Of a DNA stretch of 64,000 nt, positions 27,004 through 55,848 are shown one piece after another; the stretch's first letter is position 1; the number at the start of each line of letters is the position of its first letter. The translations under genes were made by a program, and so were the position numbers. This stretch comes from Anthoceros angustus. Lineage: Eukaryota; Plantae; Anthocerotophyta. Location: assembly GCA_010909165.1 (NCBI GenBank), contig MU008164.1:372001-436000 (forward strand). Reading direction: 5' to 3'. A model generated the notes under the pieces. That model ran no database searches. It saw only the letters and a program-made list of their open reading frames with translations, and was not told where the DNA came from.

Positions 27004-27710
27004 ACGATTCTAGAATATTCCTTATTTATACACCCTTGGCCTTATAAGTAATCCTAAATTAGAAGAAGAAGAAGAAGAAATCTCTTTGAGTCCACTCCTT
27101 ATGTATACACCTCACCCTCCTAAACTAGAAGAAGAAGAAGTTTATTATAGTCCACTTGGACAGAATCCTAAACTAGAAGAGAAAGGAGTTTATTATGGTC
27201 CACTTGGACAAAATTTTCCTCTCATGAGACGCAGTACTTCACCATGTGTTCCATCGTGTAACTAAGCTAGAACTTGTCAGCACCATCAGCTTTGCATCGC
27301 ATTACAGGAAAGAAACGAAATTTGCCAATACCATTAGTTTGTGCATTGCATTCCAGGAAAGAAACGAGAGAACTGCACCTGGCACATCCAGGATATGACC
27401 TACTTGGTCCTGAAACCTACCACACAATTCATTCCGTGACATCAGATCCAGCTAGGGAGGCGGCGGAGGCTCTTCTTTGTACCATGAGATTGGATAATAC
27501 CCAAAACATAAATAACCATGTGTTTAGGATAACCCTATTCGTAACACCCCCCCTTAAACTCAACACATTATAGCGATTCCTTCACGCGGGCCGGTGTACT
27601 CGAGTAGAAGGCCACGGCTGGCATCGTCACGTCCCAACAGGCCTCAGCGTACACTGAGGCTTACGCTCCAAGGCCAGCTCCCAGACGCAATAAAAAGGCA
27701 CAGCTTAGAG

Positions 27711-28079
27711 ATGGCAGCCAACCTTGCTTCCATCGTGGCTGGAGCCCAACTTGTGCTCTTCACTTTCACGAGCCTGCTTAATCTAGCTATCATGAGGACG
27801 CGAAGTGGACGAAGCTATCACAGCCAGGAGACCACTAGGAAGCGAGAAGGAAGGAGAGGAATCACAAGACACAAAAATGACCGTGGCGCTATTCCATGAC
27901 CAAGGAAGGGGCACAGGAAAACACTGCTAGAGGCTGGGAATGGGACAATGTGCAATTGGGGTAGTATCTTGGCGCAGGCAACTATCACGTTCATCGATCG
28001 TCTTGGGAAAGGTGAGGAAAGAAGAGGCCGGTGCGGTTTCGGAGAGGAAGGAACACAGAGCCTTATCAAGCAGCTCGAG
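27711..28079 (+). CDS. Antisense accessory ORF of copia B, 5' part (3' part at 42252-42305, split by insertion of A)
   Basis: MAANLASIVAGAQLVLFTFTSLLNLAIMRTRSGRSY...QSLIKQLE | DTIKLLDKVKNVEP..EE*. Homologous to 32169-32636 and 54402-54806; contains indels. Confidence 0.7.
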
Positions 28080-28653
28080 TAAAGGAATAGATGTGTTGGA
28101 GTCATGATTATGGTTCATTCAGTTAAGTTATTTTAAAAGGTCATGGCGTTTCATTAGGGTTACGTCTGTTCATAAAGGCGTGGCTTTTGGTTTTACTTAA
28201 ACCATTACGAACTTTAATTGTGTGTGTATTCTTTACATATATAGTGTGATACAATGTAATACAATTATTAATCTGTATATTCCATTTATCCTAAAATGGT
28301 ATCAGAGCACATGAATATGCAGGTTGCATTTTGATTAATGCACATTGAAAAATGCATTTAAAGAGAATGCATTTGAATATAGTTTTTTTTGTTTTTTGAT
28401 TTAGAAAAATGTTTTCTTGATCAAGAAACCAAAAACTTAAAGAATACAATTTGTGTTGTTTATTTATATAGAAATTGATGCGCCCGCAAATTAAGGAAGT
28501 GATCCTCGCGCATCTTTCCTGAATTGTTATTTGAACAATTTCAGAAGAAATGCGCTAGGACAACTACCTAATCTGCAGGTAGATTGTCAAAAATATTTTA
28601 TATAAAAAATACAATGTCAAAAGAAAACATTTAACAACACAAAATCTGGCCTG

Positions 28654-29340
28654 ATGAATGGCCAACCGTCTGGACGGCACAGTTGGCAGCCTCGCCCTGC
28701 TGAGCAAATTCCACAACACCAGAATCGCCGCAGGGGGCAAGGAGCACAAGCTGCAAGAAACACAGTTGCTGAGCAACTTCATCAACATACAACTGAATGG
28801 ATTGCCAGAACTCAAAATCAGCCTGTGCTCGCTCTTGAAGTAAGAGAATCCTTCAATACCTTGATTGAAGCACTCTATCCTGATCAGCGCCACTTGGTAA
28901 TTGCCCTTCCACCTCGAAACCCTGATAATCTCCCAGAGGTGCGTGTTCAGAGGGCTTTTGATGGGAATGGTCATCACGGAGGCTTTCTAACAACACATGT
29001 ATCACCACCTGCCAGTGTTGCACAATTAGTGAACAGAATTGAATCACATCAGGAACATGTGGATACACGTTTTAGTAGCATTATACAAAAGGTATCTGCT
29101 ACTAGTGTAGATTTGAGAGACTTACAAGAGCAGATAGGTCATTTGGATTTCAAACTTCTTATGTTGTTGAAGCCAGCCTTGCTTGCTAACCCTGTCCTTA
29201 GGGGTGTAGCCTGTAAGAACGCCAAGAAAACAAATAAGAATCATATGTTTGGAAGTCCAAATTCATGTCCTTCTTGCTCTGTATATGCTTTCAATAAGTG
29301 GGAGATTAGAAATCAGAGAATAATCGAGAATACAATGTGA
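28654..29340 (+). CDS. Extra 5' ORF (ORF0) of copia A: coiled coil + C/H/CxxC motif
   Basis: Intact 228-aa ORF between PBS and gag. Its C-terminus HMFGSPNSCPSCSVYAFNKWEIRN matches HERKFDTPNSCPSCSTYAFNKFEMRN at the same position in element D. Confidence 0.72.
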   Translation: MNGQPSGRHSWQPRPAEQIPQHQNRRRGQGAQAARNTVAEQLHQHTTEWIARTQNQPVLALEVRESFNTLIEALYPDQRHLVIALPPRNPDNLPEVRVQRAFDGNGHHGGFLTTHVSPPASVAQLVNRIESHQEHVDTRFSSIIQKVSATSVDLRDLQEQIGHLDFKLLMLLKPALLANPVLRGVACKNAKKTNKNHMFGSPNSCPSCSVYAFNKWEIRNQRIIENTM

Positions 29341-29498
29341 GCCGTGAGTCGACTGCATTTGTAACGCCTACCGCCAATATTCTTTGACTGTGTTGCATGA
29401 GCATCATGTGTCTGAAGTCTTGAGTCTTTCTAACCCCTGCGACCATCATAGAATCTTAGTATTCTGGGAGTAGCTAACCCAAGATACAAAAGAGGAAA

Positions 29499-31801
29499 AT
29501 GGCAACAGCAGATACCTCATCCAGTCTAGGTGGGGAAGGGTTCAAAGAGAAAGACAGGTTTGGTGGGCAAGATTACGATATATGGGTAATTAGAATGAGG
29601 AGAGCCTTGCAGAATAAGAAACTCTGGAAGGTAGTTATTGGGGATGATAAGCCCCCAGTTGTCTCCACTCTACCCACAACTGCTGAAAGCAAGTTACAGG
29701 ATGCATGGGATGCAAAAGATCAAGCAACCATGTTCCTCATCCGAAGTGGTCTTACCTCAGACATGTTAAGACAGACTTCGGGATGTACAAGTTCAGCAGA
29801 AATCTGGTCCAGACTTCAAGATCAGAGTGCAAAAGAATCGACAAGTCGATGATTAAATTATGAAATTTATGCTTTGCAAAATGAAAGATGGAGAATCAAT
29901 CGAAAAGCATCTTGGACATTTCAGAACACTTGTGTCCAGGCTGGAAAGTGCTTCAAACGAGGTTATAAAGGATGAAACACTTACACTTTATTTCCTCATA
30001 TCCTTACCAGACTCTTGGTCACATTTCGTGACCTCCTTTAACGCTTCGAGACTCCAAACTGAGAAACTTGCAAAGGCTTCCAATGTTTCCCTCCCAAAAA
30101 CCACCTTTGCAGAGTTAGTGGGAGCATTACTACAAGAGGAAGCAACAAAGTATCAGAATAATTGTTCTGGTAAACAGCAAGCCCTCTATACATCCAACAT
30201 AGGACGTGGAGGAGGAAGACCCTACAACAGGGGTGGGGGCAGTACCTCAAGAGGTGGTGGCTCACAAGGACGAGGAGCCAATCAGAGAAAACCAAAAAGG
30301 ACAAGAAACTGCAACTGGTGCAAGTTACCTGGTCACTGGGAGCGTGAGTGCCGGAAAAAGCAAGCTGGTGTTCCTCGCAAGGAGGGTTCAACCAGTGCTC
30401 AGACTCACGTGGTTGTGAAGAAGCAACCAACCCCTTCTGCCCTCACAGTCGGTACAACAGTGTTTGCAACAAGTTCATTCTTGTCTCCTGCATGCCTGTC
30501 AGCAAATACAAATGTTAAGCATACCATTGATTGGTACTTAGACACAGGGGCTACAGCCCATATTTGCTTAGACAGAGGAGCATTTCAAACGTACAAAACA
30601 GTTAAGGATCAGTACGTATACCTAGGTGATGACAGATCCCTAGTTTCTCCTGGTCTTGGCACTATAGACCTGCCAGTTCCATCAGGAAATGTGTTAGTAC
30701 TGCATGACGTCTACTACGTCCCTGAGATGACACAAAATCTCATTTCAGTCAGGAAGCTGAATGCTAATAATCACTGACACATCTTATTTACTCAAACAGA
30801 ATGTCAAGTACTAGATGCTTTTAATCATACAAAAGTACTGGCCTATGGGTCATCAGATAGAGACTTGTTTCGTCTCCATATAGATAGTAGCTTACCATTC
30901 TTAAACTTGACAAAGGGTGCAACAACTGCGTCTACACAACAGATAGAAAAGTCAAAATTGTGGCACTCACGACTAGGCCACCCAAATTCAGCAAAGTTAC
31001 AAAAACTAGCTGTAAGTGATCTTTACCAGCATGGGCATATAGGGCCTCTAGTACCACTTCCTTTGTGTGAATCCTGTGTTCTTTCAAAGAGACATCAAGC
31101 AGCCTTTAAAAACAAGGCACCACACAGAGCTTCGGATGTCTTGGAACTTGTCCATACAGATTTGTGTGGACCTCTCTCACAGGAGTCCATTGGTGGTGGA
31201 AAATACTTCCTGACATTTACAGATGACAAAACGAGGTTTGTTACTACTTACATTTTGAAGTAGAAGAGTGAATGCTTTACTCACTTTAAGGATTACCTTA
31301 AGTATGTTGAAAGATGGACTGGAAAGCAACTTAAAACTTTAAGATCAGACAACGGGGGAGAGTTTACCTCAAATGAGTTTCAGGATTACTGTTTGGCTGA
31401 GGGCATTGGTCGCCAGCTTACAGTCGTCTACACTCCACAGCAAAATGGCGTAGCTAAGCGTCTTAACCTAACGTTGCAGGAGATGACATCTTCTCTTCTA
31501 CATCATGCTCAGCTCCCCCTGCCATATTGGGCAGAAGCCATTATGACATCAACTTATCTTAAAAATAGATTGCCCACAACTTCAGTTGTTGGACTTACCC
31601 CGTATGAAGCCTTCACGGGGCGCAAGCCATCCATACTTCACCTGCGCACCTTTGGCTGTATAGCATATGCTTTTGTTCCTAAAGAGAAGAGGAAAAAGTT
31701 ATCAGACAAGGCACGTAAACTTCTGATGTTAGGCTACGCAAAGGGCATCAAGGCATATAAACTCTATGATGTTCCTAAAAATAAAGTAATATATGCCAGG
31801 A
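29499..31801 (+). pseudogene. Copia A gag-protease-integrase (premature stops; continues at 39382 and 41051)
   Basis: Gag FKEKDRF, zinc knuckle CNWCKLPGHWEREC, protease WYLDTGATAH, LWHSRLGH, integrase VHTDLCGP / LRSDNGGEF / QNGVAKR (catalytic E changed to K). In-frame stops at about 29850, 30775 and 31261. Confidence 0.92.
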
Positions 31802-32168
31802 TGTAAATTATCAAGCAGAAGCGAGAGGTGCATGAACTCTTGATAGTTGGATTAATTAATGAATGCAACACAAAATCATTGTTTTATCTTGACGCCGACT
31901 TGTATATGTAACCCTAATTCACATAACCCTAGTCCGAGTGACCATGTGTCTAGGTTTAACTGACCGATAACCCTATCGTAACAACCCCCCTTAAACTGGA
32001 CACATCATTCAGTTCCTTCACGCGAAGCTGGCGTACACGAGGAAAAGGTCACGGTCGGAAGTATCACGCTCCACAGCCGACTGCATCACGCTCCATCGAG
32101 GCCTAGCGTACACAGGAGCTTATGCCCCAAGGCCAGCTCTCGGAGGATAAGAGGGACGCAACTCAGAG

Positions 32169-32636
32169 ATGGCAACCAACCTTGCCTCCGTCGTCGCTAT
32201 AATCCAGCTTGCGCTCTTCGCTCTTACGAGCCTGCTCAATCTGGTGATCATGAAGACAAGGAGCGGGAAACGCTATCGCCGTGAAGACGCTCCAAGGAGG
32301 ACCAGATGGGCAGGAAACGCCCCACAGACCGGTGCAAGCGCAGAGAGCAACGCACCATCAAGCCTGCTCACCATCAGAGAAGAGCAGCAGGAAACCGCCG
32401 CCCAAGGCTGTAAGTGGGACAGGCACTGTTGGGGACAGTATGTGCACCTCGGGTGCTACCACGTAGAGTTGAACATCAGCCTGTCTCTGGGCAAGGTGAA
32501 GAAGGGAGAGACACGCGCTACCATCTCCAAAGACGCCCAGGGGGAAGAAGGAAAACAGAGCCTCATCAAGCAGCTCAAAGACACAATAAAGCTGCTAGAC
32601 AAGGTGAAGGACGTGATACCAAGGGAGGAGGAATAG
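32169..32636 (+). CDS. Antisense accessory ORF of copia C (155 aa)
   Basis: Intact ORF convergent with pol: hydrophobic N-terminus, MKTRSGKRY motif and conserved C-terminus HLGCYHVEL...GEEGKQSLIKQLKDTIKLLDKVKDVIPREEE. Homologues in B and E. Confidence 0.75.
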   Translation: MATNLASVVAIIQLALFALTSLLNLVIMKTRSGKRYRREDAPRRTRWAGNAPQTGASAESNAPSSLLTIREEQQETAAQGCKWDRHCWGQYVHLGCYHVELNISLSLGKVKKGETRATISKDAQGEEGKQSLIKQLKDTIKLLDKVKDVIPREEE

Positions 32637-32676
32637 GTTGAACCATCAGTCAGGTGATTATCTCTTGCAATATGCT

Positions 32677-35600
32677 TCATCCACTGATCAAGCTTTGGAT
32701 CACCGACCGGCTGATGTCCGTCATAGATAAGAGCGCTGCTAGGAGGGCTTCATCATAAAAACTGGAAGTGCAGGCTTCCACCCCACACCCCGCCTGCCTA
32801 CAAACCAGATAAGGCTCATCACTGCTGGAAACGGGCAGAAAATCCTCGAGCCCAAGTCCCTCCATGTGGGCATAGTGCTTTTGCTTAGATAGGCCTTTAG
32901 TCAGGATGTCTGCGGTGTTGTCCTCAGTATTGATATAACCGACTGTAATGACCCCACGTTCAACCACATCACGTATGTAGTGATGCTGGATTTCAATATG
33001 TTTAGTACGGGCGTGAAATTTCGGGTTTGCCACTAACTCAAGCGCAGACTGGTTGTCACAGAGAAGCTGCGTAGGCTGAAGTTGATGATCAAGATCAGCA
33101 AGGAAACTCCTCTCCCATTCAGCTTCTTTAGAAGCCTCTGTCAGAGACTTATATTCAGCTTCGGTGGAGCTGAGGGCAATACTCGCTTGCTTCTTACAAC
33201 TCCAGTTCACAGCTGCTGAGGCTAAAAGGAAACAGTACGTAGAAAGACTACGGCGAGAATCTTGATCTGACGCCCAGTCGGCATCGGTGTAACCTGTCAG
33301 GGTAAGCTGTGCTTTGCCACTTTGTCTGTACACCAAGCCTGTTGTATGAGTCCCCTTAAGGTAGCGGAAGATACGTTTTACAGCTGTCCAATGTGTCCTT
33401 CCAGGATTTTCCAGAAACTGGGATACTGTGCTCACAGAATATTGGATGTCGGGTCTCGTCCAGTTAGCAACAAAAATAAGGCTGCCCACCGCGTGCCTGT
33501 AAGGTACATCGCGCATATCTTCCATCTCTTCTGCAGTCTCAGGACACTGCTCTCGGGTAAGCTTGGTCCCGACTGCATAGGGGGTTGTAGCAGGACGAGC
33601 TTGGTCTAGGTTGAACTTCTTCAGTATTTCATTTACGTACTTGTACTGATGGATAATCATGAGGCCTTCGGATCTAATGCGAAGCAACTGTATGCCAAGA
33701 CAGAACTTCAACTCTCCAATATCCTTCATGTCAAACTTGCTGCTAAGTTTATTTTTGACATCTGACAGCAGCTGTTGATCATTGGTTGCGAGAATTACGT
33801 CGTCAACATACAAGGCTAAAATCACAATAGAAGACCCCACAGTGAGTTTGTAAACGTTAGTATCTGCCGTGCTCTGGACGAAAGCTATACTGAGCAAGTA
33901 TACGTGCATCGTAAGGTACCATACTCTCCCACTTTGCTTAAGTCCATAAATGCATTTCAACAACTTCAGGACTTTATTAAGGTGTTTTGGGTCTTCATAT
34001 CCCTCTGGCTGCAGCATGTAAAGTTCTTCGTCCAGGGCACCATACAAAAACGCAGTACAAACGTCCATCTGTTGAAGGTCCAAATTATGTTCTGTGGCAT
34101 AGGCAAGCAAGATCCTTATGGATTGAGTGCGTACAACTGGAGAAAAAGTGTCTTGGTAATCCAGACCCTCGACCTGGGTGAACCCGCGGGCAACTAAGCG
34201 AGCTTTGAATCGCCACCTCTCCCTTAGCATTGAGCTTGAGTTTGAATACCCATTTACAGGATATTGCCTTGCGACCCGGAGGGAGGTCTGCCAGTACCCA
34301 TGTCTTGTTCTTGACCAGTGACTGGTACTCGTCCTCAACGGCCTCTTTCCATTGTGCTGACTCAGGACCATCAAAAGCTTGAGATAAAGAGGTAGGCTCA
34401 TCTGGAAGAGATGGGCTAATAACAAGATGAGTCCGGAAATCTGTAGATTGATATGGGGGCTCTGCCCATTCGGATGGTGGGGGACGATGGCGAGAAGACC
34501 GCCTGAGCTCATCTGCAGGGGGTGCTTCTAGTGCGTGCTCTTGTTCGACTGCTTGGCCATCATGAACCTGGGCAGGTGCCTCCACAGCAAGGGGTCGATG
34601 ATCATAGTGTACAAGAGGGGGACGCTCATCAAGGATAGCATCCTGGTCAGGTTGTAATCCCTGTACAGCATTAGGAGCCTCGACAGGCTGCCAATCATCA
34701 TCACCTCTGGCAGGAGGTGGCAACTGTGGGGGAACTGCAACATGTTCCATGTCGTCCAGTGGGTAGTCGGCAGTTTCATCGGCATCCAAAACATCCAAAT
34801 GTCCATGAATGGCTCCTGGGTCGGGGGAGGATGGATCAGTGGAGGATGGATGCAGTGTCTCCGTAAAGGTTACACTACGAAAAGTACCATGGAGTCTACC
34901 TCTGGGTTGTACAACTTGTAGGCTTTAACAAGCTCACTGTAACCAACAAAGATGAGGCCTTGAGCACGAGCATCCAACTTCTTTCTCTTCTCTGGAGGAA
35001 TATGGGCATATGCTTTGGATCCAAAAATCCTCAAATGGAGCAAGCTCGGCCTCTTGTGCCAAAAGACCTCATATGGAGTCTTCTGTGGGACCGAACTTGT
35101 AAGGACCCTATTCAGGATATAGGTGTGAACTACCGCCTCGCCAAGACTTGTGGTAAGCCCATATCAGCATGCTCCTCGTCATTCCTGTGAGGGTTTGGTT
35201 TTCCTCTCTCAAAATGCCGCTTTGTTATGGGCGCAGGCACAACAATCGTCAAGGATCCCATGCTCTTGAAGCAGCTCATCAAGAGATGAGTTGACGAACT
35301 CCGACCCATTGTCTGTCCTTAAAATCTTGAGAAGCATTGTCTTCAGACCATCAAAAGCTTGAGATAAAGAGGTAGGCTCATCTGGAAGGGATGGGCTAAT
35401 AACAAGATGAGTCCGGAAATCTGTAGATTGATATGGGGGCTCTGCCCATTCGGATGGTGGGGGACGATGGCGAGAGGACCGCCTGAGCTCATCTGCGGTG
35501 CTTGTGCGTGCTCATGTTATTTGCTTGGCCATCATGAACACAGGCGGGTGCATCCGAGGCGGTCGATGATCATAGTGTACAAGAGGGGACGCTCATCAAG

Positions 35601-38062
35601 GATAGCATCCGTGGGTTGTAATCCCTGTCACATTAGGAGCCTCGACAGTCGCTAATCATCTTCACCTGCGGAGGTAACATGTAGGCGCAACATGTTCCAT
35701 GTCATCCAGTGGGTAGTCGGCAGTTTCATCGGCATCCAAAACATCCGAATGTCCATGAATGGCTCCTGGGTCGGGGGAGGATGGATCAGTGGAGGATGGA
35801 TCAGTGGGTGCTGTTGGCTCCAGAAAGGTTACACTACGAGCAAGTACCATGGAGTCTGTCTCAGGGTTATATAACTTGTAGGCTTTAACAAGCTCACTGT
35901 AACCAACAAAGATAAGGCCTTGAGCACGAGCGTCCAACTTCTTTCTCTTCTCTGGAGGAATATGGGCATATGCTTTGGATCCAAAAATCCTCAAATGGAG
36001 CAAGGTTGGCCTCTTGTGCCAAAAGACCTCATATGGAGTCTTCTGTGGGACCGAACTTGTAAGGACCCTATTCAGGATATAGGTTGCAGTAACTACTGCC
36101 TCGGCCCAGTACCCTTGTGGTAAGCCTGCCCATATCAGCATGCTCCTCGTCATTCCCAGGAGGGTTTGGTTTTTCCTCTCTGAAATGCCGTTTTGTTGCG
36201 GCGTGTAGGGCACAGTCAACTGTCGAAGGATCCCATGCTCTTGAAGCAGCTCATCAAGAGATGAGTTGACGAACTCCGACCCATTGTCTGTCCTTAAAAT
36301 CTTGAGAAGCATGCCTGATTGTCTTTGTGCAGTTAAGAGCCATTCCTTGAAGTAACTAAAGGTGTCACTTTTCATATGCATGGGGAAGGTCCAGGTGTAA
36401 CGACTGTAATCATCAGTTAGAGTAAAGAAATATCTGGAACCACCTAAAGATGGCTCATGGATCTTCCCTGATATGTCAGCGTGCACTAACTCAAGGACTT
36501 GTGTGGCTCTATGTGCAGAGGCATTAGGAAAGGGGGATTCCTTTTGCTTGGCCAGGATGCAAGATTCGCAGACTGGTAAGTCTTTAAAACATTTAGAGTG
36601 GCTCCCTGTGACACTCCATAACTGACATGTCAATTAGCTTAGATCTGTTGACATGTCCTAATCTGGCATGCCACAATACGGCCTCTTGCTTTGCACTAAC
36701 TGAATTTCTGGCAGTGGAGTGTGCAGCATGATTGGAAACAATGGCGGAGCTGCAAGTGATGTTCAATCTGTATAAATCATGGTCTAAGATACCTTTGAAA
36801 ACACATGTATCTGGGTATGCCTTTCTATAGAAAGAACAGTGATTAGAATCAACACGCATACATAAGGTACGCAGACGCATCAACTGGCTCATGGACATGA
36901 GATTTTTGGCCATGCATGGAACAAACAAACATCATCTAATCTGAGGTCTGTACTGTCCTGCAGCCTGAAGATACAGGTACCCTTGCCTTCAACGGGCAGA
37001 CTTGTTGTACTTTGCTCATCACCAAGCAGGACCTTGTCATTGACATGACCAAGGTCAAGGGTAGTAAATAACTCCCTGTCTTTGCAGATGTGAGTCGTAG
37101 CGCCGGAGTCCAGATACCAACTACAGTCATCATGTAGGGAACTAGAAAGGCAAACGGTAAGTATCTTGACCGGTGCCTTAGTTTCTCCAGGATTTTTCTC
37201 CTCGACAAAGCAAAGATTAGTTTCCTACTGCTGCTCACCGCCTTCTTTATGGCAGCCTTGCCCAATGGCTGTGGGTGCCACACCGCTTGCAAGAACCTGG
37301 ACGTTTGGTGGAGGAGCTAGCGAACGGGCCTCTGTCCAACAGAACGGGCTGTAGCCGAGTGCTCTCGAATTTGGCCTTGCCTCTGAAAGGTCGTAAATTC
37401 ACAGCTAATACTCTCTCGGTTCTGTTCTTAGGAACAGCACCGGAAAGGGTACGAGCCTGTTCCTCCTGATAGAGTGGCCGATGTCCTCAATAAGAAGTCA
37501 GCAGATCCCGAGGCTTTACAGTCCGCTTTTGAGCAAAGGATAAATTGATATGAAGGTGGGAGACTAATGAGTAGCTGGGATACAGCTTCGACTTCTGGCA
37601 TCTTGTTACCAGTCAACGAAGTGATCTGGGCCCTAAGATGTCGGAACTTGCTGGTATGAGCAGCTTCTCTCCTTCCTTCATTTTCAAAGCATAAAACGCC
37701 ATTCTTGCGGCTGATAACGACAGCATGTTGGTGGACCGATAAGTGGTTTCTAACTGGTGCCAGATAGCCTCCGCTGTGTCCAAGAACTCAATATCAGGCA
37801 CAAGATCTGCATCTAGGCCATTGATGAGGAGGGCCATAGCGACACCATTGTGGTGCATCCACTTGGCATGATCATCAGGGTGTGTGGAAGGATCAGGCTG
37901 CTTGAAAGTGCCATCGAGGACTGGCCAAACTCCACGAGCAGACATGATGGCCTTAATCCTGACTCGCCAAATGAGGTAACCATTTCCCTTAAACCGATCT
38001 TTTTCCTTCAATTCTGAAGTGAAAGATAGTGCTAGGGTCGGATGTGAATTTGACGAAGCCAT
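32677..38062 (-). CDS. Copia C gag-pol polyprotein (frameshifts probably partly assembly errors)
   Basis: Gag LKEKDRF at 38062; LWHARLGH; IN VHADISG / LRTDNGSEF / QNGISERKN; RT FKARLVARGFTQ, QMDVCTAFLYG, LYVDDVIL; RH GYTDADWA, SSTEAEY, ADILTKGL. Confidence 0.9.
34365..36312. repeat. ~980-bp tandem duplication inside copia C (probable assembly overlap)
   Basis: 34365-35337 is repeated at ~35345-36312. The first copy degrades by indels at its right end and the second at its left end. Confidence 0.75.
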
Positions 38063-44680: not shown

Positions 44681-47600
44681 TCTTTTAATGACTACATGAT
44701 GATGAACACTCTTCCTTCGATGTAGTTAGAGTTCGCAGCATGGATTTTACTTTGTCGACTGCCAAGGAACTCCGAGGAGTCTCCAAGGCCAAGACTTTTA
44801 ACATGTTTCTTTCGTGAAGCTCTTTTCCTAGAGCCTTAGTCAATATTCGCTGGATTGTCTTATGCCACATACTCGAGGTTGATTTTACCCGCCTTGATTA
44901 GGTCTCCGATAAAATGATACTCAACCTCGATATGCTTTGTCCTTGCATGAAACCGGGTTACGAGCAAGTGACATGGAGCCCCGGTCATCGGTCCTTATGA
45001 GCGTATGTAGGTAATGGTATACCCATTTCGCTAAGGAGTAGTTGCACCAAATGATCTCTTTGCAAGAAGGACTCTATATTCAGCCTCGACGTCGAGAGCA
45101 ACTGGGCTGTTTTTGCTCATCCAAAGAATCGGTCCACCGCTATGCTCACAACGTAACTGCAGCAGATCTCCTGTTGTCCACGCTTTCATAGTCGAATCGG
45201 TGAAGACCTGTTCAAGTTGTTGTCTGTGTGTGGCAATATTTTATCCTCGATGTGGTGTCCCTTCAAGTATCTAAAGACTCTTTTAATGCTTGTCCAAGGT
45301 TTTGGCCCGGGTTCTCCGTGAACCGTGAGAGAGCGCTAGCAAAGGCAACTTCCATACGAGTAGTGTTTGCATATATGAGTTTCCAACATGCCTATAAGGT
45401 GGCTAACATCCTTTCCTTCTACACTGCTTGTGGGGACATTTCAACTTAGCTTGATTCCACTTGGTAGGGGTGTAGCGGCTTTGCATCCTTCAAACCTAGC
45501 ATCCGCACTTTCAGTATGTATCTTGGTTGTGAGTGTGATAACCTGCTTCTCAACATGTATACCAAGACAACTCAAGATCACCAAGGACATCTTAAACTTA
45601 GTTGCAAGTGTCGAATCTTTTGATAAAACTCGTGATCACTGACAAGATCAGTCATCTATCGCTAGGCTGCATTTATGTCACCTTTCTTGTAGATGTGTGC
45701 TACCATCCGCTTTTTTGGTGAAACCTAATACTAAAAGCTCAGATCAAGTTCTGCTCCAAGCCATTGCGCATCGCTTCAACCCGTACAAGTCTTGATAAGT
45801 TTACATACATAATCCTCCTTTCCTTTGACTACATAGCCGTGAGGTCACCGATATATTCATGTCAAGCTTGCCATTCAAGAATGCTGTTTGACATCAAACA
45901 TTTGCGCTCATAGTCCTTATAGATATTGCACATAATGCTCGTATGGTTGGCGCTTCACAACCTGGAGCGAATGTCTCCAAATAGTCCACGCCGGAACTTG
46001 TGAAAATCCACGAGCCACTAGTCTTGCCTTGTACCTATCAAGGTACCATCAGCCTTGACTTTCAATTTGAAGACCCACTTACAAGACACCATTTTTCCGC
46101 CAGAGGTAATTTTGACAACTCCCATGTGCCGCTCTCAATCAATGAGTCATATTCGATTTTATAGCTTTCTCCCACTCCTTGTGATCGTGTCCGCTCAAAG
46201 CCTCGCATAAGACCGTGGTTCTACAGGTCGAGGTTAGTAGCGTACATGCTTTCACATGTGAAGAGGAAATAATGGCAATAATAATCGAGAGTCGACGCTC
46301 GAGTAGGGTAACGTCGAGCAAGCTCGCTGTGTTCTTGTTCGTTGAGGGTCTAGATCTTGTTCAAGTTGTTCAAACATAATCTCTTCCTCGTCATTCTCGA
46401 TCGCTTCATCTTCACCGTTGCATCGCAAGTGCTTGATCCGGTTGAGGAATGTGATCCTGTGACATCCGCGGGCATGTCAAGTTGAATTTCGTTCGTGTTC
46501 TTCTTCAAACACGCCGATTTTCCCTCCCGCAGAACATTTTCATCAACAGAGCTCGAGTACCATGATCCGCGATCATAATGAGAAAGCTCAAGACTATCCT
46601 CGCCATCGTTCGAGCATGAACATGTGCTCCCAGAAGCCCAAGTCTTTGTTTCATCAAGGTAACACTGAGCATAAATGACCTTGTTAGAAGGAACATCATA
46701 TAGTTTATATGCTTTTATCCCTCCGTATCCCAACATGAGCAAGGGGCCTTAGCTGAAAGCTTGGTTCGTCATCTGTATGAAGGCATATGCAAGGCAAAAA
46801 CGCCTCAAGTCTGGATGGATGGTCACTGTAAAAGCTTCATAAGGAGTTTTGCCTTCATGCTGTGGTGGGTAACCCGTTCAAGAAAGGTTGAGGTCATCAA
46901 AGCCTCGCCCGAAGGTAAGGGCGCTTGAGCATCATGCAATGAGGAGACCATCTCCTGTGAGATTCAAACGCCCGCCACTCCATTCTCATTGGGAGTGTAT
47001 ACCACGTGAGTTGACGCCCAATGCCTTCATCTTTACAGAATCTGGAATTCATTAGAGGTGAATTCCCGCCATTGTCCGATCTTAGTGTCTTGAGTCGCTT
47101 TCTGCCCAACGCTCAAAGAACTTGATGTATTCCTTGAAATAGGAGAAACATTCATTGTTCTTCAGGATGTAGGTGGTGACAACCGCTTTTGTCATCTCAG
47201 AACGTTAAGAAATAACGCCCACCACCAATGGACGCTTGAGATAAGGGTCCACACAAATCGAGATGTACAAGCTCAAGTACGCACGGTGAGGTGCTTTGTT
47301 CTTGAAAGCTTGGTGTTTCTTCGACAAAACACAAGCCTCACATAAGGGTATAGGAGTCAAGGGGCCAATAGGTCCATCTTGATGTGTCACCATAGCCCAA
47401 TTTTGTAGCTTTGCCATGTGAGGATGACCTAGGCGCATGCCACAACCGAGCCTTTGCCTTTTGTTGTGCAGATGCAAGGGAGACGCCTTTGTGTCGTGGA
47501 CTGCTACTCCACGTGCAAATGGAGACGAACAGATCATGGTCCAAGACCCATGCGCAAGTACCTTTCTAGGGTCAAATGCATCTATGATTCTGCAACTGCT

Positions 47601-48929
47601 CTTGTGAATACATGACTTATTGCTCGATTCAATCTTCTAACAGAGATCGTGTTTCTAGTCATCTGCACATGGTAGACATCTTCTAACTTGAGTGTGTTTC
47701 CAGAGGAACTATTAACTCTCAACTATGCCAATCAGACTAGTTTTAAATTCATCTCTATCAAAATATGTGCAGAGCACCGATTCTAAGAACCATTCTTTTT
47801 GGTTTGATTCACTTTGGAGGAAAGACAAGTGGAAGCAAAGAATGGACTAGCAAACTCCCTAGTCCCAAGTAAGAGCGATGGGGTATTAACCTTTTTACCA
47901 CAACATTTGATTCGATGGTTCCTCCTTGCGAGGAACTCCTGCTTTGGCACTCTTTTCCCAATGGCGATTGCACCAGCGGTTCACGGCTTCTTTGTTTCTT
48001 CCGGTGAGGATCGCGAGCTACCTCCCCGAAGAGTTTCCACCACCTCCTTTGGAGAAGGGCTTCTTCCTCCTCGTCCTTGTTGTGAGGTGTACAGGCCTTG
48101 TTTCGCTTATGGTTGGTCCTGCGGCTTCTTCTTGCATGGAACTCACGAGCTGTGAGAAGCTCATTTCAGGCATCTCTATGCCTTGCTTTTTAGCTAACAA
48201 CGTAGCTTGTGTTTGAGCAGCTGTATGAGAAGTCACGAAATGTGACCATGACTCTGGAAGCGAAAGAAGGAGCCTCATCACCATTTCATCTCCAATGGCA
48301 ACTTTGGAGGCACCCTGAAGCCGTGAGGCTAGGGTCCTGAAGGTACTCACGTGTTTCTCCACTGAGTCACCGTCCTTCATCCTTAGGTTCGAAATTCCTT
48401 AGAGTCATTGCGCTTACCATGTTCTCGCTGTAGAGTTCCTTTAGGCGATTCATGATTTCGGCCAAGTATTCACCTCATGCCTCAACATCTCGGTTGCCAC
48501 GCTGCGTATGAGGTATTTGGCTCCGTCCTTAGCTAACCATTCTTCCTCTCCAAGATCCTCGTCGGTTTCACTACTTTTCCAAGAGCATGTTTGAGGAGGC
48601 CTCTCATTTGAGAACGCCCCATTCTTATAAGCCAGATGTCAAAGTCATTTCCGTTGAACCTGTCCTTCTCCTTGAAGGACTCACTGCTTCCAAAATTATG
48701 TGTAGAGGATGTGTCACCCATTTTGGGTTGCTGAACTCCTAAGAGTTTGTCCTCTACAGTATTGAAGAAGCTTTCTAATGTGTCTTCTTCCTGGTCACTA
48801 GCATGAACACTATCATGGGCACTGCTGTAGCCACTATTCTCACCATCCATACATACTACTTACAATGCGTGTTGGTTTTGTAGTTGCTCCTGTGCAGGCA
48901 CCTATGGTTTGTTCCCAAACGCGCTATGC

Positions 48930-49490
48930 GCCTATCTTAGAGTTTCTCATCTCAAACTTATTGAATGCGTAAGTGGAGCATGAAGGGCAAGAGTTAGGTG
49001 TATCAAACTTCCTTTCATGCTTAGTTTTACTTACGTGCATTCGCCTCCGAATGGGTTGGCCAACAACTCTGGTTTCGAACATTACAAGCTTGTAATCTAA
49101 GTGTGTTATGCTCTTTCAAATCCTGCAGATCAATGCTAAGCGACATGACCAATCGACGACATCTGCTTTCAACATTCCTATTGTTAGCCTCAAGACGAAC
49201 AATTGTGTTTACACCTCTGATTGTACAACGCCTTTGTTGTGAGGAAGCCGCGTTGGTGTATGTTCTCAAGTGGCGATGTTGCACCGTACCGTCAATTGTG
49301 GAATGTCAAGTCAAGCTGCTGGGAACAGCAATTCGAGAAGTGTGTTGAAGGCTCGCAATGTGTCTCCTTGTGCTTGATTGGGCAAGTTGCTCCACTAGGA
49401 TGCGCCCATGTAATTGATGTGCTGTGGTTTTGTCTCTCGGCATTTCGCGATCCCGCCTTGGATTTTGATTGTTCCTCCTAGGATTCACCG
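48930..49490 (-). CDS. Extra 5' ORF (ORF0) of copia D (indel-broken)
   Basis: Between PBS and gag: ...RLEANNRNVESR...SLSIDLQDLKE...HERKFDTPNSCPSCSTYAFNKFEMRN, homologous to A ORF0. Confidence 0.6.
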
Positions 49491-52400
49491 GGATTTTGGT
49501 AGATGTAATTTTCCATGGCTATGTGCCACGATTGTATATACAATGCAATTCCTGCATTTTCTGTTTTTTATATGATTTTTACATATTGCCCACCGTGCAA
49601 ATGCTCTAGTGTGCCTCCATTGAATTGCTCAAGTAGCAACTCAACTGGAGGTGCGCTAGACTATCTCACCGATCTTGCGTAATCTATATGAATTCATCAA
49701 AATAAAATAGAAATAAAACAAGAATGCACCCATTCTTTTTCTATCTTATGTTTCTTGATTTTAACTTATTTATAAAACAAGAAAACAATCAAGAAAACAT
49801 TGTGCATATTTTCCGATGCACATTTCAATGTGCATTCATTTGAATGCAACCTACACTAGGTATGCTCGATACCATGAAGATTTTATGGACTAATGTAGAT
49901 CAATTAAACATTATAGAATAATTACATTGTTGGATCAAGAAAGAAGTAAGTTGCTTATGCATGAAAAGACAACTAAACTAAATTTAATGAAACGTTGTAT
50001 CTATTCACTTAGAGACGTAACCCTAATGAAACGACACCATATCTAGTAAACCCTAGCTTATCATATCTTGGTAATATATGGATAACTTAAACCCCTAAAC
50101 CCCTAACTATGATATCAACATTGTATATCATTAAAACTGGTGAGCTTGTCCTTAACAATGGACAGCAATCATTTTGGAAGTAGGATAACGCCATCCATAC
50201 GACCAAGAGAACTATAGAGGACCCTTGGTGAGCTTGTAAACATTGGTATCTGCAGTTCTGAACAAAGCGATGCTAAGCAAATACTCATGCATAGTAAGGT
50301 ACCAAACTCTCCCACTTTGCTTAAGCCCATATATGCATTTTAACGACGAGTACTTTGTGTGGGTATGTCGATCTGCACCCTTCCATACGGCAGACATGTA
50401 AGTTCTTCGCTCAGTATTATGGGCGACCACCGACGGCCACCGGCGCGCACAATCCCATGTCGTTGTAGTAAGGAGTCCGCTCCCAAGAGAATGATAGGCT
50501 CCGTCTGCGTTCAATCGATTCTCACCTCACTTTGTGACTGCTCACCAACACACATCCGTCATTTTGCGCTTAACTACTCGTAACGTCCACCGAACAGGCC
50601 GTGTGGCTAAACGCTTAAGGACCCGTTCAGGCGTCCAGACGCTCACGCCACTGTTCCTCTAGTCCGCTCCTCTCACCACTCTCACTACACCAACCATGGG
50701 AAAACGCGAGTGGCTGCAGTCTGCCCGACCTCCTCCGCCCGCCGGGTCCCTCCGTCCGCTCAGACGCCCGGGAGTTCCTCCGGCTCACGCCCGGCCGCTC
50801 GACCGCCGCCTGGACGAACAAGGGTCCCCAATCGCTCTTCCCCGCACACACCACTCACACGTTAGGGTCCATCACGGGACCTTGATCCTCTCCGGGCTGC
50901 TCGTGCTCGCCGGACTCAGACTCACGTTAGCAAGAAGACGACAAGGGTCTCGCAAGGAAACGCATCAACACCAAGAGAAGATGATTTACTCACCTCGGCC
51001 CTCTTATACTACGCCAAGGTCGGCGCCTTTATTACACCTCTACTCGAAATGAGGTTAGCTCCGCGCCTAATCGCCGCCTACTATTCTCCTATTCCTCCTA
51101 TCTCCGCGTCGGTGGTGGGCCAGGATGGCCTCGATTCGCTCTTGGCACCGCGCCCAAAGCCGAGCCTCGACGATCACGCACCCAATCGGATGATCCGCGA
51201 GGCGGGACCCTTCCTCTCCCAGGGTCTGCCAGTCGGCCACGGCCGACAACGGCGTCACCACTAAGTCCTCCTCCTCCTCTTGTCTCTCGGGGCCCCTCGC
51301 GCAACGGGCCTCCAAAGGCCGGATCTGGGCCGGTGATTGGTGGCTCTCCCCACTCCCGAGTCTGGACCTCAGGGACCCCTGCCTCGACTCTGAGTCCGGA
51401 CCTCTAGGTCCGTCTTCCTCCGGGGTCCGGGTCCCTCGTGGTCCGCCTTCTTCTCGGAGTTCGGACCTTGGGGTCCGGACTTGCCTGGGTCCTGGACCCA
51501 ACCTTCCCTCGAGTCCGGACCTCGTGGTCCGGCCTCACTCGGAGTCCGATCTAAGTCCAGACTTCCTCTGGGGACCGGACTGGAGTCGGCCTTCTCGTGA
51601 GTCGGACAAAGTCCGGACCTGGCTGTGCTCTCGGGTTCCCTACCTCCTCACCGGCCGATCACGGCTCATCCACCGAGCCTCCTTGGTTCCCGAATGCCCG
51701 TTGCGCCTTCCACGGCCTCCCCTGGTCCTCCTTCCTTCCGCAAGGGGTGCTGAGTGCTTACCTGTAGTGACCTCCCTCCGCCCGGCCTCCTCCGCCTCTC
51801 CCGCCGGCTATCAAATCATGGGCCTTAGGGTCCCGTGGTCACTGCTGTCCCGTCCTCCCTCGCCTCCTCCTTCCGACCCTTCTCGGAAGTCCGCCTCCGC
51901 CTAGGGTGGCGCAGACCTCCAGAGCCTTGAGAGCTCATGGTAGTAGGCGAAGTCGGAATCAACTTGTTGAATCGCCTCCTCCACATGAGCCGGAGCACGG
52001 TACTCCTCCTCAGGTGTGTGCTCCGCACCGGCACATGTTGTCCATTGCTGGCCCGCCCGTGGCCAAGCTTACCAGCTAGGCGGGCGGACTCCTTGATGCC
52101 GTGGGCGGCCGGAGGAAGACCCAGGACGTTGAGCAGCGCTTAACGGGCAGCTGTCGGCCTTTAAGTAGCTCAGTGATAAGCACCTTTGGCTGTCTCCAAA
52201 CACGCGACTTCACCACGCGCTGTAATCCTTTGCCATATCCTCTTCGCCGCGATTCACATAGTCTCCGGGTATGGCCCCACCCCCTTTCTGTTGTGGAAAT
52301 TTGCATCGATTTGTGCGACGCTAATTCCTGCTTTGAATTGCGCTGCTTTCTTGTGTCAGATTGTATCAAATCGTTTCAGGATGGTAAGCGGTAGACGAAG

Positions 52401-52909: not shown

Positions 52910-53214
52910 GCTACTTTGACGTGCGGGATTACGATGACGAGTGGATTCGCTTCAAGATAACCAAGGGTGACTTCATCATCCTCCCTCCCGGATGTACCAC
53001 GATTCACCCCGGACGAATCCTTATTCATCAAGGTTCGCCTCTCTTCCTTCTCCGGTGCCATTTCTCTTTGTTACAACTTGCTTTCAATAAAGGTCTTGCA
53101 AGGAAGCTTGTGGCTTGAAGATTGTACCATTGAGGTGCATTTAGGTGTTGGTGGGTTAATATTATTGGAACTGTGCGGGCATTGAGGCTCTTCATGGAGG
53201 TGCCTTCATGGACA
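52910..53214 (+). pseudogene. Acireductone dioxygenase (ARD) gene fragment, two exons
   Basis: After a CTGCAG acceptor: [28 protein letters not shown](M)[13 protein letters not shown] | intron | ALRLFMEVPSWT. This is the C-terminal half of the ARD cupin. The N-terminal EHxHxxEE metal-binding part was not found. Confidence 0.75.
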
Positions 53215-53990
53215 GACGAGGACTCCACGATTACAGATCAGCCAACTACGGAGATCGCCCGAGATGATAACGCTGACAAATTGGAAGCCCGTGAGTTAAC
53301 GTTGTTTCAACCCACCGGCATCACCCTAACCACTTTGTCCAAATTTCATAATGCTCATGTACGGTTTCCCATAAATCTTCTTGCCGCTTGTTTTGTCCGC
53401 TTGATGCATGCGGCTACTTACGCCAAGATCGCATGTAGATCTCATCCATCCTCTTAGGGAGCCTAACCTAGCCTTCACGGCAAAAGCAAAGGATGGGCAT
53501 TAGTTCCGACTTCCAAGGAGTTGATGATGCAACTAGTTTGAATTGCATGTACCAAACCAAGATTTGATGCCGATGAAAAGAATATGATTGATTGGCTGTC
53601 TATCTAGTCACTAGTCCAGCTTCAGCCTCTGAGCACTGCAATTGCTCACGCAGGCACGGCCGTTTAGATCCCGCCTTTTTGGGAGGGTCTGCTCCGCCTC
53701 CAACCGGAGGCTGGTTTGAACTGGTGCCGCCAAGTTTCCTCTTCTCGCCCATTTTTGTTTCCTAAACCGCCCATTCCTAGTCAGTTTGTGGCATTCAATT
53801 GGCGCAAGTTTTGTCCTCGGGGGCATAATGACTTGATGACAACGACAACCGGTGAGCGTCCGGTTATGAACGCCACGAGCTCCCCGCCGCTGATGGAATC
53901 CTTCAAACATACAATAAGATTGCGTAATATTTCTAACACATAAAGAAAAGGAGGGAAGAAGGATACAAATGAAAAGAACCCACCCTCGTA

Positions 53991-55848
53991 TGTGAAGTAT
54001 CATTACATAATCATTTGCTAGATTTGACTATAGCTAAGAGGTTTAGGCGGTACACACAAACATGTGTATCCGTAATGAATTAATTGAACATATCAAAAAG
54101 GTCTCATATGTGTTCATTAAATAGCCAAACCCTAAAACAAAAAGGTATATCTAAATATGATAAGTTAAGCTAATGGCAGCAACCCGTAACACCTCTTAAG
54201 CTCATGTTTAAGCAACTAACAACAAGCCCAAGATCATCCTAAAGCAAACCCTTCGTAAACGAAAGCGGTACGCGATCCACGTAAAAGCGCTCATGCACCG
54301 GACGACTCAAACTCATAGCTTCTGCCACTCCGCATCGCGGCTTGAGTAGCCCAACAACCTCCACTCGCAGCCCGAAGAAGAATAAGGCTGTTACCGGAGC
54401 CATGGCTAGTAACCTTGCCTCTTTGATCACGGAGCTGAATCAGCTGGTTTCCTGCATACATCTTCTCGCGGTGCGCCATGAAGACTGGCAAGGCGTGATA
54501 AGGATTTTAATCGAGGAAAACAGGAAGAATAAGATACCACCTGCCAAAACAATGTTTACGAGCTTTGGACAAGAGGCGTGCCACGCCGGGGGGACTACAA
54601 GACGTGGGCGGAGGATTCACTTGGGTGCCTACCACATGGAACTGAGCGTGAACCTAATATGGGGAAAGGTGAAGCGAGGGGAGACTCCTAATTTGCCTTT
54701 GTACGCTATTGGGGTGGAAGGGAAACAGACCTTGATCAGCCAGCTGGAGGACACCATTGAAATGCTGGACAGAATTAAGGACGTGATGCCGAGAGAGGAG
54801 GAGTGAAGGCCGAACCAAACAGCCAGGTGATTAGATGCTGAACTGGAGCTCCATCCAACCTGGTTTGTCAGGGTTTTCAAGTAACTTATAGCTGTGTGAT
54901 GTATCTGGGCAGGAGGAACATAGATGGAGAGCATCACAATAAACTCAGGATGTGGTCATCCGGAACCCCCTCTCACACAGATAAGAGTTACTTAGTTCTG
55001 CTCATAGGCTGTGAAATCAATAAGCCCTAGGCCTTCCATATGCCGGTAGTGTAGATGCTTGGGAAGGCCCTTTGTAAGGATGTCCGCCGTATTTTCATCT
55101 TGGAACATGGCGATCTTTATAATACCGATGAACCACATCTCTAATATAGTGATGTTGAATTTCAATGTGTTTCGTGCATGAAATTTAGGATTTGCAACAA
55201 GCGCAAGAGTGGACATGTTGTCACATAGAAGTGGCCTGGCTTGCTGCTGCCCCAAATCCAAAAGGTTCAGATCCACTGCCTCCTTAGAGGCCTGTCGACT
55301 CTTGTACTCGGCCCCGCTGACGAGAGGGCAACCGATGTTTGTTTCTTGCAGCCCAGCTTGGTGACAAATGAGGAGAGGAGAAAACAATATGTAGAAAGGC
55401 TTCGACGTGATTCTCGTGTCCGATGCCCAATCAAGATCTGAAGCCTTCAACAAAAGTTTCCCGCCGGCCCAGTTGCTTCGTATGCTAGTCCATAGGATCG
55501 AAAATTTTAGGTAGCGGAAGACACGCTTACCGCCAATGAACTCGGCCTGGATTTTCCAGAAATTGGGATAGGGTGCCGATCAATCGGATGTCCGCCTTGT
55601 CCAGCTAGCTATAAAAATTAAGCTTCCTATGGCATGCCCGTAAGGGACCTGTGCCATCTCTCACCTCGTCGCACCTTGTGGACATTGACTAGTGAGCTTA
55701 GTCCCTACAAGATATGGTGTAGTAGATGGCCGGCATGTTCAAGCTTAAACTTATGTAGCAGTTCTTGAACATATTGATACTGATGAATGATGATCAACTT
55801 CTCAGGTCTGACCCTTAGTAACTGAATGCCAAGGCAGAAACGTAGCTC
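53991..55848 (-). mobile_element. Ty1/copia element E, 3' part (B/C lineage)
   Basis: LTR inner end ...CCCGTAACA (54191) plus CCTCTTAAG. RT/RH remnants at 54992-55848 (ELRFCLGIQLLR, VANPKFHAR, ADILTKGL). Left LTR boundary inferred. Confidence 0.75.
54402..54806 (+). CDS. Antisense accessory ORF of copia E
   Basis: MASNLASL...(ATG AAG ACT GGC AAG at 54478)...HLGAYHMELSVNLIWGKVKRGET...GVEGKQTLISQLEDTIEMLDRIKDVMPREEE*. Confidence 0.7.
   Translation: MASNLASLITELNQLVSCIHLLAVRHEDWQGVIRILIEENRKNKIPPAKTMFTSFGQEACHAGGTTRRGRRIHLGAYHMELSVNLIWGKVKRGETPNLPLYAIGVEGKQTLISQLEDTIEMLDRIKDVMPREEE

What the first reader, a model, noticed from the sequence alone, without database searches (positions are those of the whole stretch)
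27244..55848. Copia retrotransposons with a three-gene architecture: extra 5' ORF + gag-pol + convergent antisense 3' gene, in two lineages
Seen in sequence: all three elements whose 5' end is present (A, C, D) have a ~200-aa ORF between PBS and gag. All five (A-E) have an ORF on the opposite strand between pol and the PPT. The two lineages (A/D with PPT CAACAAGTGGGAG; B/C/E with PPT TTAAG(G/A)GG) use apparently unrelated antisense proteins in the same slot. Established: extra 5' ORFs are typical of gypsy Ogre elements, antisense 3' ORFs of gypsy Retand/Grande/RIRE2 elements, and copia Sireviruses have a sense env-like ORF. I do not know this combination from copia. Inference: these elements carry virus-like accessory genes with chromatin-binding motifs, possibly for integration targeting or anti-silencing. 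Novelty cannot be confirmed without a database search.
Basis: partly seen in the sequence, partly recalled or inferred. Interest (0 to 1): 0.88.

Follow-up and report, generated by a model that had tools for sequence, protein, structure and literature searches.

The report
Copia retrotransposons with two extra genes
Five nested copia-type jumping genes in a non-seed green plant or alga carry, or keep remnants of, conserved extra genes of unknown family (one ahead of the usual genes, one backwards behind them); the layout is known from the other big retrotransposon group, and these genes likely encode helper proteins for the element's own life cycle.

Summary
The layout is real, with corrections. 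Five Ty1/copia elements in two lineages lie here: C in A, A and D in B, E apart. Upstream ORFs are intact in A (228 aa) and C (201 aa). D's is seen only through frameshifts but matches A's along its length. Antisense ORFs after RNase H are intact in C (155 aa) and E (134 aa); B's is split by A, A's and D's are frameshifted. A lacks RT/RNase H. Codon-blind alignments show third-position excess in the conserved parts (C-E antisense p=0.001; A-D upstream p=0.0002), so these families were selected as proteins; C's upstream ORF and the A/D antisense ORF have no such test. No homologue or fold was found. Chromatin binding, integration targeting and anti-silencing are untested: the TRSG motif is missing in E and follows a membrane-like helix in B and C. 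REXdb lists both slots for gypsy Ogre, almost never for copia, but ignored ORFs under 250 codons. Earlier notes of this scan found each half-layout in copia elements of other genomes. Verdict: new variant of a known kind.

The parts
27246..27546 (-). Element B 3' LTR (TG..CA); PPT at 27547-27557
27711..28078 (+). B antisense ORF, 5' part (frameshifted); continues after element A at 40600-40656 and, in the duplicated copy, 42252-42308
   Evidence: 61 of 136 columns identical to C's protein, 3 frameshifts, score 188 vs 37 for the highest of 12 shuffles; tail
28079..28296 (+). Element A 5' LTR, ends TA..AA; target-site duplication TCGAG; PBS (tRNA-Met type) at 28297
   Evidence: 212 of 217 identical to the 3' LTR
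28654..29340 (+). A upstream ORF, 228 aa: basic N-terminus, heptad coiled coil near 134-168, C-terminal CPSC motif
   Evidence: homologous to D's; third-position excess
29499..31801 (+). A gag-protease-integrase (three stops); cut by element C at 31801, resumes at 39382
   Evidence: Pfam; empty site bridged by contigs of a related sample
31802..31983 (-). Element C 3' LTR (TG..CA); PPT at 31984-31994; three AACCCTA on the antisense strand
32169..32636 (+). C antisense ORF, 155 aa: hydrophobic helix, KTRSGKRY, conserved 70-aa C-terminal domain; its stop lies 40 bases from the pol stop
32677..38062 (-). C gag-pol; RT-RNase H open for 616 codons (34527-32680); internal tandem duplicate 34366-36312
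38544..39149 (-). C upstream ORF, 201 aa: RG-rich N-terminus, C-terminal heptad coiled coil; 481-base spacer with 10 ATGs before gag
   Evidence: single copy, selection not testable
39195..39381 (-). Element C 5' LTR; PBS starts at 39194
   Evidence: 174 of 182 identical to the 3' LTR
39550..40216 (-). A antisense ORF: open 172 codons from ATG 40216; likeness to D continues in another frame to about 39550, where RT/RNase H are missing
40365..40595 (+). A PPT (40365-40377) and 3' LTR (40378-40595)
   Evidence: loose ends of 4 contigs in each of 2 runs begin at 40378
40794..42446 (.). Tandem near-duplicate of 39112-40779, probably an assembly artefact
   Evidence: 90% identity; the two LTR copies match 218 of 218
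42500..43414 (-). B RT-RNase H; continues beyond element D at 50134-50370; 5' part of B absent
43415..43673 (-). Element D 3' LTR (TA..CA); PPT 43674-43686
43720..44450 (+). D antisense gene remnant, many frameshifts; shares GRPKGTTKE, FPKP..TQIVS and HP..P.WY with A's
44700..48859 (-). D gag-pol, full domain order, heavily frameshifted as assembled
48933..49490 (-). D upstream gene, homologue of A's, read through 6 frameshifts
   Evidence: 78 of 214 columns identical
49875..50133 (-). Element D 5' LTR; flanks AGTTT / GGTTT
   Evidence: 255 of 257 identical to the 3' LTR
54186..54199 (-). Element E PPT; the 3' LTR starts at 54185, its far end was not fixed
54402..54806 (+). E antisense ORF, 134 aa, 44% identical to C's; no TRSG motif
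54992..55848 (-). E RT (3' part) and RNase H; 5' part of E absent

Best explanation
These are Ty1/copia LTR retrotransposons of two lineages that carry two extra reading frames, one between the primer site and gag and one on the opposite strand between RNase H and the polypurine tract, and both likely encode small accessory proteins that help the element's own cycle rather than its enzymatic core. Shown: the layout; conservation across diverged copies; excess change at third codon positions in the B/C/E antisense family and the A/D upstream family. Inferred: the antisense gene cannot be read from the genomic RNA, so it would need its own transcript, started in the 3' LTR or in the 160-220 bases between LTR and ATG. 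Its product most likely acts in trans as a regulator of element expression or silencing, like the roles proposed for maize Grande gene23 and Retand antisense ORFs; this is more plausible for the basic A/D protein (nuclear, DNA-binding) than for the B/C/E protein, which may be membrane-anchored. The upstream protein (basic unstructured head plus coiled coil) most likely oligomerises and binds the element's RNA or particle. As 10 ATGs lie between C's upstream ORF and gag, Gag-Pol would need a spliced or shorter RNA, or internal initiation. Element A is a non-autonomous deletion derivative that would borrow RT from relatives. My odds: real coding accessory genes about 0.9; the functional roles about 0.4.
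For: ORF lengths beyond chance (0, 1, 4, 9 of 2000 shuffles). Codon-blind DNA alignments: C vs E antisense C-domain mismatches 16/12/32 at positions 1/2/3 (p=0.001); A vs D upstream C-part 13/17/37 (p=0.00017); RT control 31/22/136; non-coding control 14/12/8. Protein-guided pN/pS 0.37 (0.25-0.53) for C-E, 0.52 for C-B, 0.46 for A-D. First ATG and MA.NLAS start conserved in B, C, E. The three sense frames under C's and E's antisense ORFs all hold stops. Heptad scores of both upstream proteins above all 200 shuffles; pI 9.7-9.8. Contigs of a related sample cover A's upstream ORF (one 371-base piece with 32 substitutions and no gap) and A's antisense ORF at about 81-88% identity. AACCCTA telo-box-like sites lie on the antisense strand in 10 of 10 cases over the five LTRs; telo boxes are enriched in plant 5' UTRs (PMC3022908, passages); the copies are related, so this is weak. 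Precedent: Grande gene23 has its own antisense promoter and is nuclear (PMC7264820).
Against: No expression data. No homologue or fold that points to a function. Whole-ORF third-position tests are weaker than the best parts: C-E p=0.02, A-D p=0.054, C-B p=0.12; the sub-regions were chosen after seeing the alignments. For A's antisense ORF the 37 listed differences from related contigs fall 10/13/14 on codon positions, no excess (only 40 of 202 rows were shown, and those shared by all contigs probably reflect decay or errors of this copy). C's upstream ORF has no second copy. The TRSG motif is absent from E. A's leader holds 9 ATGs before the upstream ORF, which argues against simple scanning.
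Confidence: 0.55

Rival explanations
1. The upstream ORF is not a separate gene but an N-terminal extension of Gag, joined by a frameshift, readthrough or intron, and broken here by decay and sequencing errors.
For: In D the gag frame is open about 45 codons upstream of the usual start and comes within about 25 codons of the upstream ORF's end, and D has roughly one frameshift per 70 bases. A's spacer, read in the frame of its upstream ORF, weakly resembles that extension (ILGVANPR vs LLGVQQPK, 16 of 1000 shuffles). C's spacer has a 71-codon open stretch in the gag frame.
Against: A has 4 more stops in 53 codons of that spacer while its neighbouring ORFs are nearly clean; A and D both stop within a few codons of the same conserved motif; C's 481-base spacer has stops in all three frames.
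Confidence: 0.2
2. The B/C/E antisense protein is a membrane-anchored, env-like or movement-type protein, and KTRSGKRYRR is the basic flank of its anchor rather than a nucleosome-binding motif.
For: Hydrophobic 19-mer at residues 9-27 in C (2.34) and 5-23 in B (1.89) just before the basic cluster; helix 5-32 in the model (low confidence). A sunflower Athila minus-strand extra ORF is predicted transmembrane (PMC11728184, passages).
Against: E's N-terminal helix is amphipathic (1.39); the best conserved part is the soluble C-terminal domain.
Confidence: 0.2
3. The ORFs are passengers or by-products: captured host fragments, or frames kept open by composition or by an antisense RNA role, with no protein function.
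For: No transcript evidence; no third-position excess among the listed differences in A's antisense ORF; D's antisense region is barely readable.
Against: Third-position excess with near-saturated synonymous sites in two families; no cellular homologue among 1.84 billion representatives for A's upstream protein or among 339 candidates for the C/E alignment.
Confidence: 0.1

Closest known systems
Ogre (gypsy, Tat clade)
   Same: Both slots are filled in the lineage: eORF-5'F in 21% and eORF-3'R in 60% of 766 elements (PMC6317226 supplementary table MOESM5).
   Different: Gypsy domain order, extra RNase H, about 15 kb; its 3'R ORFs carry the plant mobile domain PF10536, not hit here. The elements here are copia of about 7 kb with LTRs of 180-300 bases.
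Antisense aORFs of Retand, maize Grande gene23, rice RIRE2, bean PvRetro13 ORF2, Botrytis Boty
   Same: Antisense ORF between pol and the 3' LTR, conserved among copies, function unknown (PMC7264820; PMC11963269).
   Different: Retand and the 15 bean families with ORF2 are gypsy; the bean proteins are 211-939 aa; Retand's carry Transposase_28, not hit here.
Tekay 5' aORF proteins (sunflower Tekay 13-2, rice Retrosat2 ORF0)
   Same: ORF before gag; basic, mostly disordered, with a few helices (PMC11728184, passages).
SIRE (Sirevirus) copia
   Same: Copia with an extra ORF between pol and the 3' LTR (74%).
   Different: Sense orientation (antisense in 1%); no 5' ORF listed; about 10 kb.
Non-TGCA copia elements (TARE1 and Hopscotch TA..CA; AtRE1 TA..TA)
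   Same: D ends TA..CA and has short LTRs.
   Different: A ends TA..AA, not among the eight copia types tabulated for lotus.

Membership tests
Ty1/copia | Order gag-PR-INT-RT-RH with copia-type gag (PF14223) and RT (PF07727) | tested here: met
   C and D full order; A up to INT; B and E RT-RH only
Ty1/copia | LTRs, tRNA-Met PBS, PPT | tested here: met
   the reading of TGGTATCAGAGC as tRNA-Met type is recalled
Ty1/copia | 5-base target-site duplication | tested here: inconclusive
   A TCGAG on both sides; D AGTTT/GGTTT, one mismatch; C none; B and E lack a 5' end
A named REXdb copia lineage (Ale, Ivana, Tork, Ikeros, Lyco, Gymco ...) | RT/RH/INT placement among REXdb reference domains | not testable with these tools
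   REXdb sequence file too large to read. In a quick tree of 57 rows B/C/E group with three unnamed proteins (support 99) and apart from the named angiosperm rows, except the long-branched Paspalum row whose place is unsure; D is a long branch in an unresolved group
Osser / Bryco / Bianca | Half-tRNA primer (PMC6317226) | tested here: not met
   PBS is the full 3'-end type starting TGG in A, C, D
SIRE | Extra ORF after pol in sense orientation | tested here: not met
   The ORF is antisense; sense frames are closed under it in C and E
Ogre / Retand | Gypsy order RT-RH-INT with archaeal-type RNase H | tested here: not met
   INT precedes RT
Ogre / Retand extra ORFs | Plant mobile domain PF10536 or Transposase_28 PF04195 | tested here: not met
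   no such Pfam hit among 85 ORFs at E 0.05 or 7 at E 10
Antisense aORF (aORF-3R) class | Conserved antisense ORF between pol and the 3' LTR in most copies | tested here: met
   present or recognisable in 5 of 5 elements, intact in 2 of 5
Antisense aORF (aORF-3R) class | Own antisense transcript | not testable with these tools
   only DNA contigs were available to lay
PC4/Whirly-like nucleic-acid-binding fold (my guess for the B/C/E C-terminal domain) | Four strands plus helix with a structural match | tested here: inconclusive
   model has that order of elements but mean pLDDT 54.5; best Z 3.6, no Foldseek hit at E 0.001
AT-hook / LANA-type acidic-patch peptides | Binding to AT-rich DNA or to H2A-H2B | not testable with these tools
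   motif likeness is recalled; no Pfam AT-hook hit; TRSG in 2 of 3 family members

The most novel reading that the evidence does not exclude
Two copia lineages of an early-branching streptophyte have each reached a complex-retrovirus-like three-gene plan with their own orphan proteins: an antisense regulator made from a 3'-LTR promoter that binds chromatin (an HBZ-like role) and an upstream coiled-coil RNA or particle protein, with the antisense slot exchangeable between unrelated genes.
Probability: 0.3. Interest if true: 0.75.

Novelty: new variant of a known kind. Interest (0 to 1): 0.5.

Why it matters
Plant copia elements are treated as bare gag-pol elements, with SIRE's sense env-like ORF as the main exception. 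Short accessory ORFs fall under the 250-codon cut-off of the reference survey, so they may be commoner than recorded. Compact elements (about 7 kb, short LTRs) with 130-230-aa accessory genes would be simpler objects than Ogre or Retand for the open question of what extra ORFs of plant retrotransposons do. Up to four protein families without detected homologues are added. Without expression or function it stays an annotation-level finding.

Tried and rejected
No whole genome is held, so copy collection and genome-wide dN/dS were not possible. No RNA holder listed. Homologue searches: C/E alignment, none of 339 candidates at E 0.01 (only 73-272 aa searched); A's upstream protein, 2 hits at E 0.001 among 1.84 billion, over 22 and 43 residues of long proteins, one Cys-rich and repetitive, judged spurious; viral contigs, none for either query; none of 5 accessory proteins below E 0.2 in 80 metagenome copia loci. 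C's upstream and A's antisense proteins got only Pfam and the local searches. The ESM Atlas gave no answer. The full-length model of C's antisense protein was unusable (pLDDT 36.5); no PC4/Whirly match stood out for the C-terminal domain (SP_0782 at E 6). Pfam Ntox28, CorA, DUF2114 and COMP hits are below cut-off and taken as helix noise. The RT control was run in the wrong frame (pN/pS 1.72); the right control is. Leaky scanning to gag: C's upstream ORF holds 2 ATGs against 9.3 expected, but the spacer holds 10 and A's ORF 12, so rejected. Common origin of the A/D and C upstream proteins: only the coiled coils align (37 of 1000 shuffles). The careful tree did not finish; the quick tree used 53 of 120 listed homologues (ranks 1-45 plus named ones). 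No complex prediction was run.


Full report
Host and data quality. No genome is held. Neighbouring genes are a type II-like metacaspase closest to the plant Metacaspase-4 structure and SPINDLY, whose ORF is 60-66% identical alike to angiosperm, liverwort, lycophyte and conifer proteins (119 of the 120 listed rows). I infer a non-seed streptophyte (alga or hornwort) without close named relatives. The assembly is noisy: two tandem near-duplicates at 89-90% lie inside the finding, and element D needs 20 frameshifts over RT-RH though its LTRs match at 255 of 257 bases.

Anatomy. Element B (minus strand) is the oldest: 3' LTR 27246-27546, RT-RH at 42500-43414 and 50134-50370, 5' end absent. A (plus, 28079-40595) sits in B's antisense ORF with the duplication TCGAG; D (minus, 43415-50133) sits in B's RT; C (minus, 31802-39381) sits in A's integrase, with no target-site duplication; E (minus, from 55848 to a 3' LTR starting at 54185) lies apart and lacks its 5' end. 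Contigs of a related sample bridge the empty site of C in A. RT-RH identity over X-free columns is 81% B-C, 62% C-E, 60% B-E and 32-38% between D and the others. In a quick tree B, C and E form a clade (98) with three unnamed proteins (99), and D is a long, unplaced branch. A and D share PPT, both extra genes and 67% DNA identity in integrase. So there are two lineages; whether they share an ancestor that already had this layout is unresolved.

A has lost RT and RNase H: no RT match falls in it and its integrase tail meets the broken end of its antisense gene near 39550. One 679-base contig of the related sample (and a 490-base one in the second run of the same sample) joins integrase tail and antisense ORF within about 130 bases, so RT-less relatives seem to exist beyond this window. 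Another contig runs from A's integrase tail into D-like sequence at the start of RT (side of 38 bases, weak).

Are the extra ORFs real? Four are intact and longer than base shuffles of their slots give (0, 1, 4, 9 of 2000). As a control, 3 of 39 non-identical metagenome copia loci with at least 1 kb after RNase H had an antisense ATG ORF of 130 aa or more; two of them are one AT-rich family, one looks like a TIR gene by recall. C's and E's antisense proteins are 44% identical and end alike; B's aligns over 136 columns. A's and D's upstream genes align over 214 columns. Codon-blind DNA alignments give third-position excess in the conserved halves (p=0.001 and 0.00017) but weaker values over whole ORFs (0.02, 0.054; C-B 0.12); the RT control is 31/22/136 and the non-coding control 14/12/8. 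Protein-guided pN/pS is 0.37-0.52 (such alignments lean low). The A/D antisense gene is the weakest claim: score 56 against at most 46 in 12 shuffles, three shared short motifs, DNA score 75.5 against at most 45 in 100 shuffles, and no codon-position excess among the 37 listed differences to related contigs. C's upstream ORF has no second copy.

What are the proteins? Nothing known matched. Both upstream proteins are basic with a strong heptad repeat (above all 200 shuffles each), but only the coiled coils align, so they are alike in build and not shown to be related. The B/C/E antisense protein has an N-terminal helix, hydrophobic in B and C, and a conserved 70-residue C-terminal domain modelled as four strands plus a helix at pLDDT 54.5, with no significant fold match. 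The A/D antisense protein is basic (pI 10.9 in A) with GRPKG and RDALGRF, which I recall as resembling AT-hook and CCT/NF-YA minor-groove motifs; no call supports that. The two antisense families show no likeness.

Mechanism. Shown: layout, tail-to-tail ends (40 bases between the stops in C, 185 in E), ATG 162-216 bases from the 3' LTR in A, B, C and E. Inferred: a separate antisense transcript; AACCCTA sites all face that way in the five LTRs (10 of 10, related copies). Inferred: Gag-Pol needs a route past the upstream ORF, since C's spacer has 10 ATGs; A's leader has 9 ATGs before the upstream ORF itself. Roles as trans regulator and as oligomeric RNA or particle protein rest on analogy with Grande and Retand and on composition. 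The main rivals are a Gag extension for the upstream ORF and a membrane anchor for the B/C/E protein.

Comparison with what is known. REXdb's lineage table (PMC6317226: passages, section 10, supplements MOESM4 and MOESM5 read; MOESM1 and MOESM3 too large) gives Ogre 21% 5' sense and 60% 3' antisense ORFs. Among copia it gives SIRE 74% 3' sense and 1% 3' antisense, Bianca 5 and 2%, Ikeros 4 and 6% (printed under the 5' columns; blank cells make the column unsure), and dashes for the rest. Its cut-off was 250 codons, above all ORFs here. PMC7264820 (parts 1-2 of 3) names Grande, RIRE2, Retand, PvRetro13 and Boty as antisense examples; PMC4093653 (passages) finds antisense ORF2 in 15 gypsy families and in none of 65 copia families; PMC11728184 (passages) notes that elements occasionally have both kinds of aORF. 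Also read as passages: bioRxiv 137141, PMC9804982, PMC3022908, PMC11963269. Ten searches (seen as listings) showed no title or abstract start describing the combination in copia; most subscription papers are not covered. Unchecked notes of this scan report antisense genes in fungal copia and upstream genes in two other copia elements; none matched this sequence or genome.

Verdict. A genuine copia counterpart of the Ogre layout, with orphan proteins, in two lineages; function untested. New variant of a known kind, interest 0.5.

Noticed in passing
window 28079-28296 and 40378-40595: Element A's LTRs run TA..AA, fixed by the TCGAG duplication and by B's reading frame across the empty site; this end type is not among the eight non-canonical copia types tabulated for lotus.
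   Followed up: partly
window 31801 / 39382: Element C has no target-site duplication, and the flank next to its 5' LTR (GTGTTAC on the plus strand) forms an inverted repeat with the LTR end; unexplained.
   Followed up: partly
window 39382-40216: RT-less A-type elements that keep the upstream ORF, gag, protease, integrase and much of the antisense ORF; a contig of a related sample shows a similar short join.
   Followed up: partly
window 28320-28330 and 49840-49850: A and D share AGGTTGCATT about 25 bases after the PBS start, and A has CTAATCTGCAG at about 28569-28579; possibly a leader intron that removes upstream ATGs (my reading, untested).
   Followed up: no
window 38021-39182: One contig in each run links PBS-side sequence to C-like gag with unlike sequence between (side of 24 bases): a relative may lack or have replaced the upstream ORF.
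   Followed up: no
L006, L007, L016, L017, within 1.2 kb after RNase H: An AT-rich (34-37% GC) copia family in metagenome contigs has a conserved antisense reading frame after RNase H, unrelated to those here.
   Followed up: partly
window 52873-53115: Exon of an acireductone dioxygenase (ARD, PF03079) host gene between elements B and E.
   Followed up: yes
window 543-1379: A single long ORF with DUF4291 (E 2e-63) on the minus strand; origin not examined.
   Followed up: no
window 9971-11411: Weak RVT_1 match (E 0.004) and flanking ORFs, probably a decayed non-LTR element.
   Followed up: no
window 50600-52100 and 56000-58300: GC-rich repetitive stretch and several unassigned ORFs, perhaps further mobile elements; no Pfam hit above cut-off among those scanned.
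   Followed up: partly
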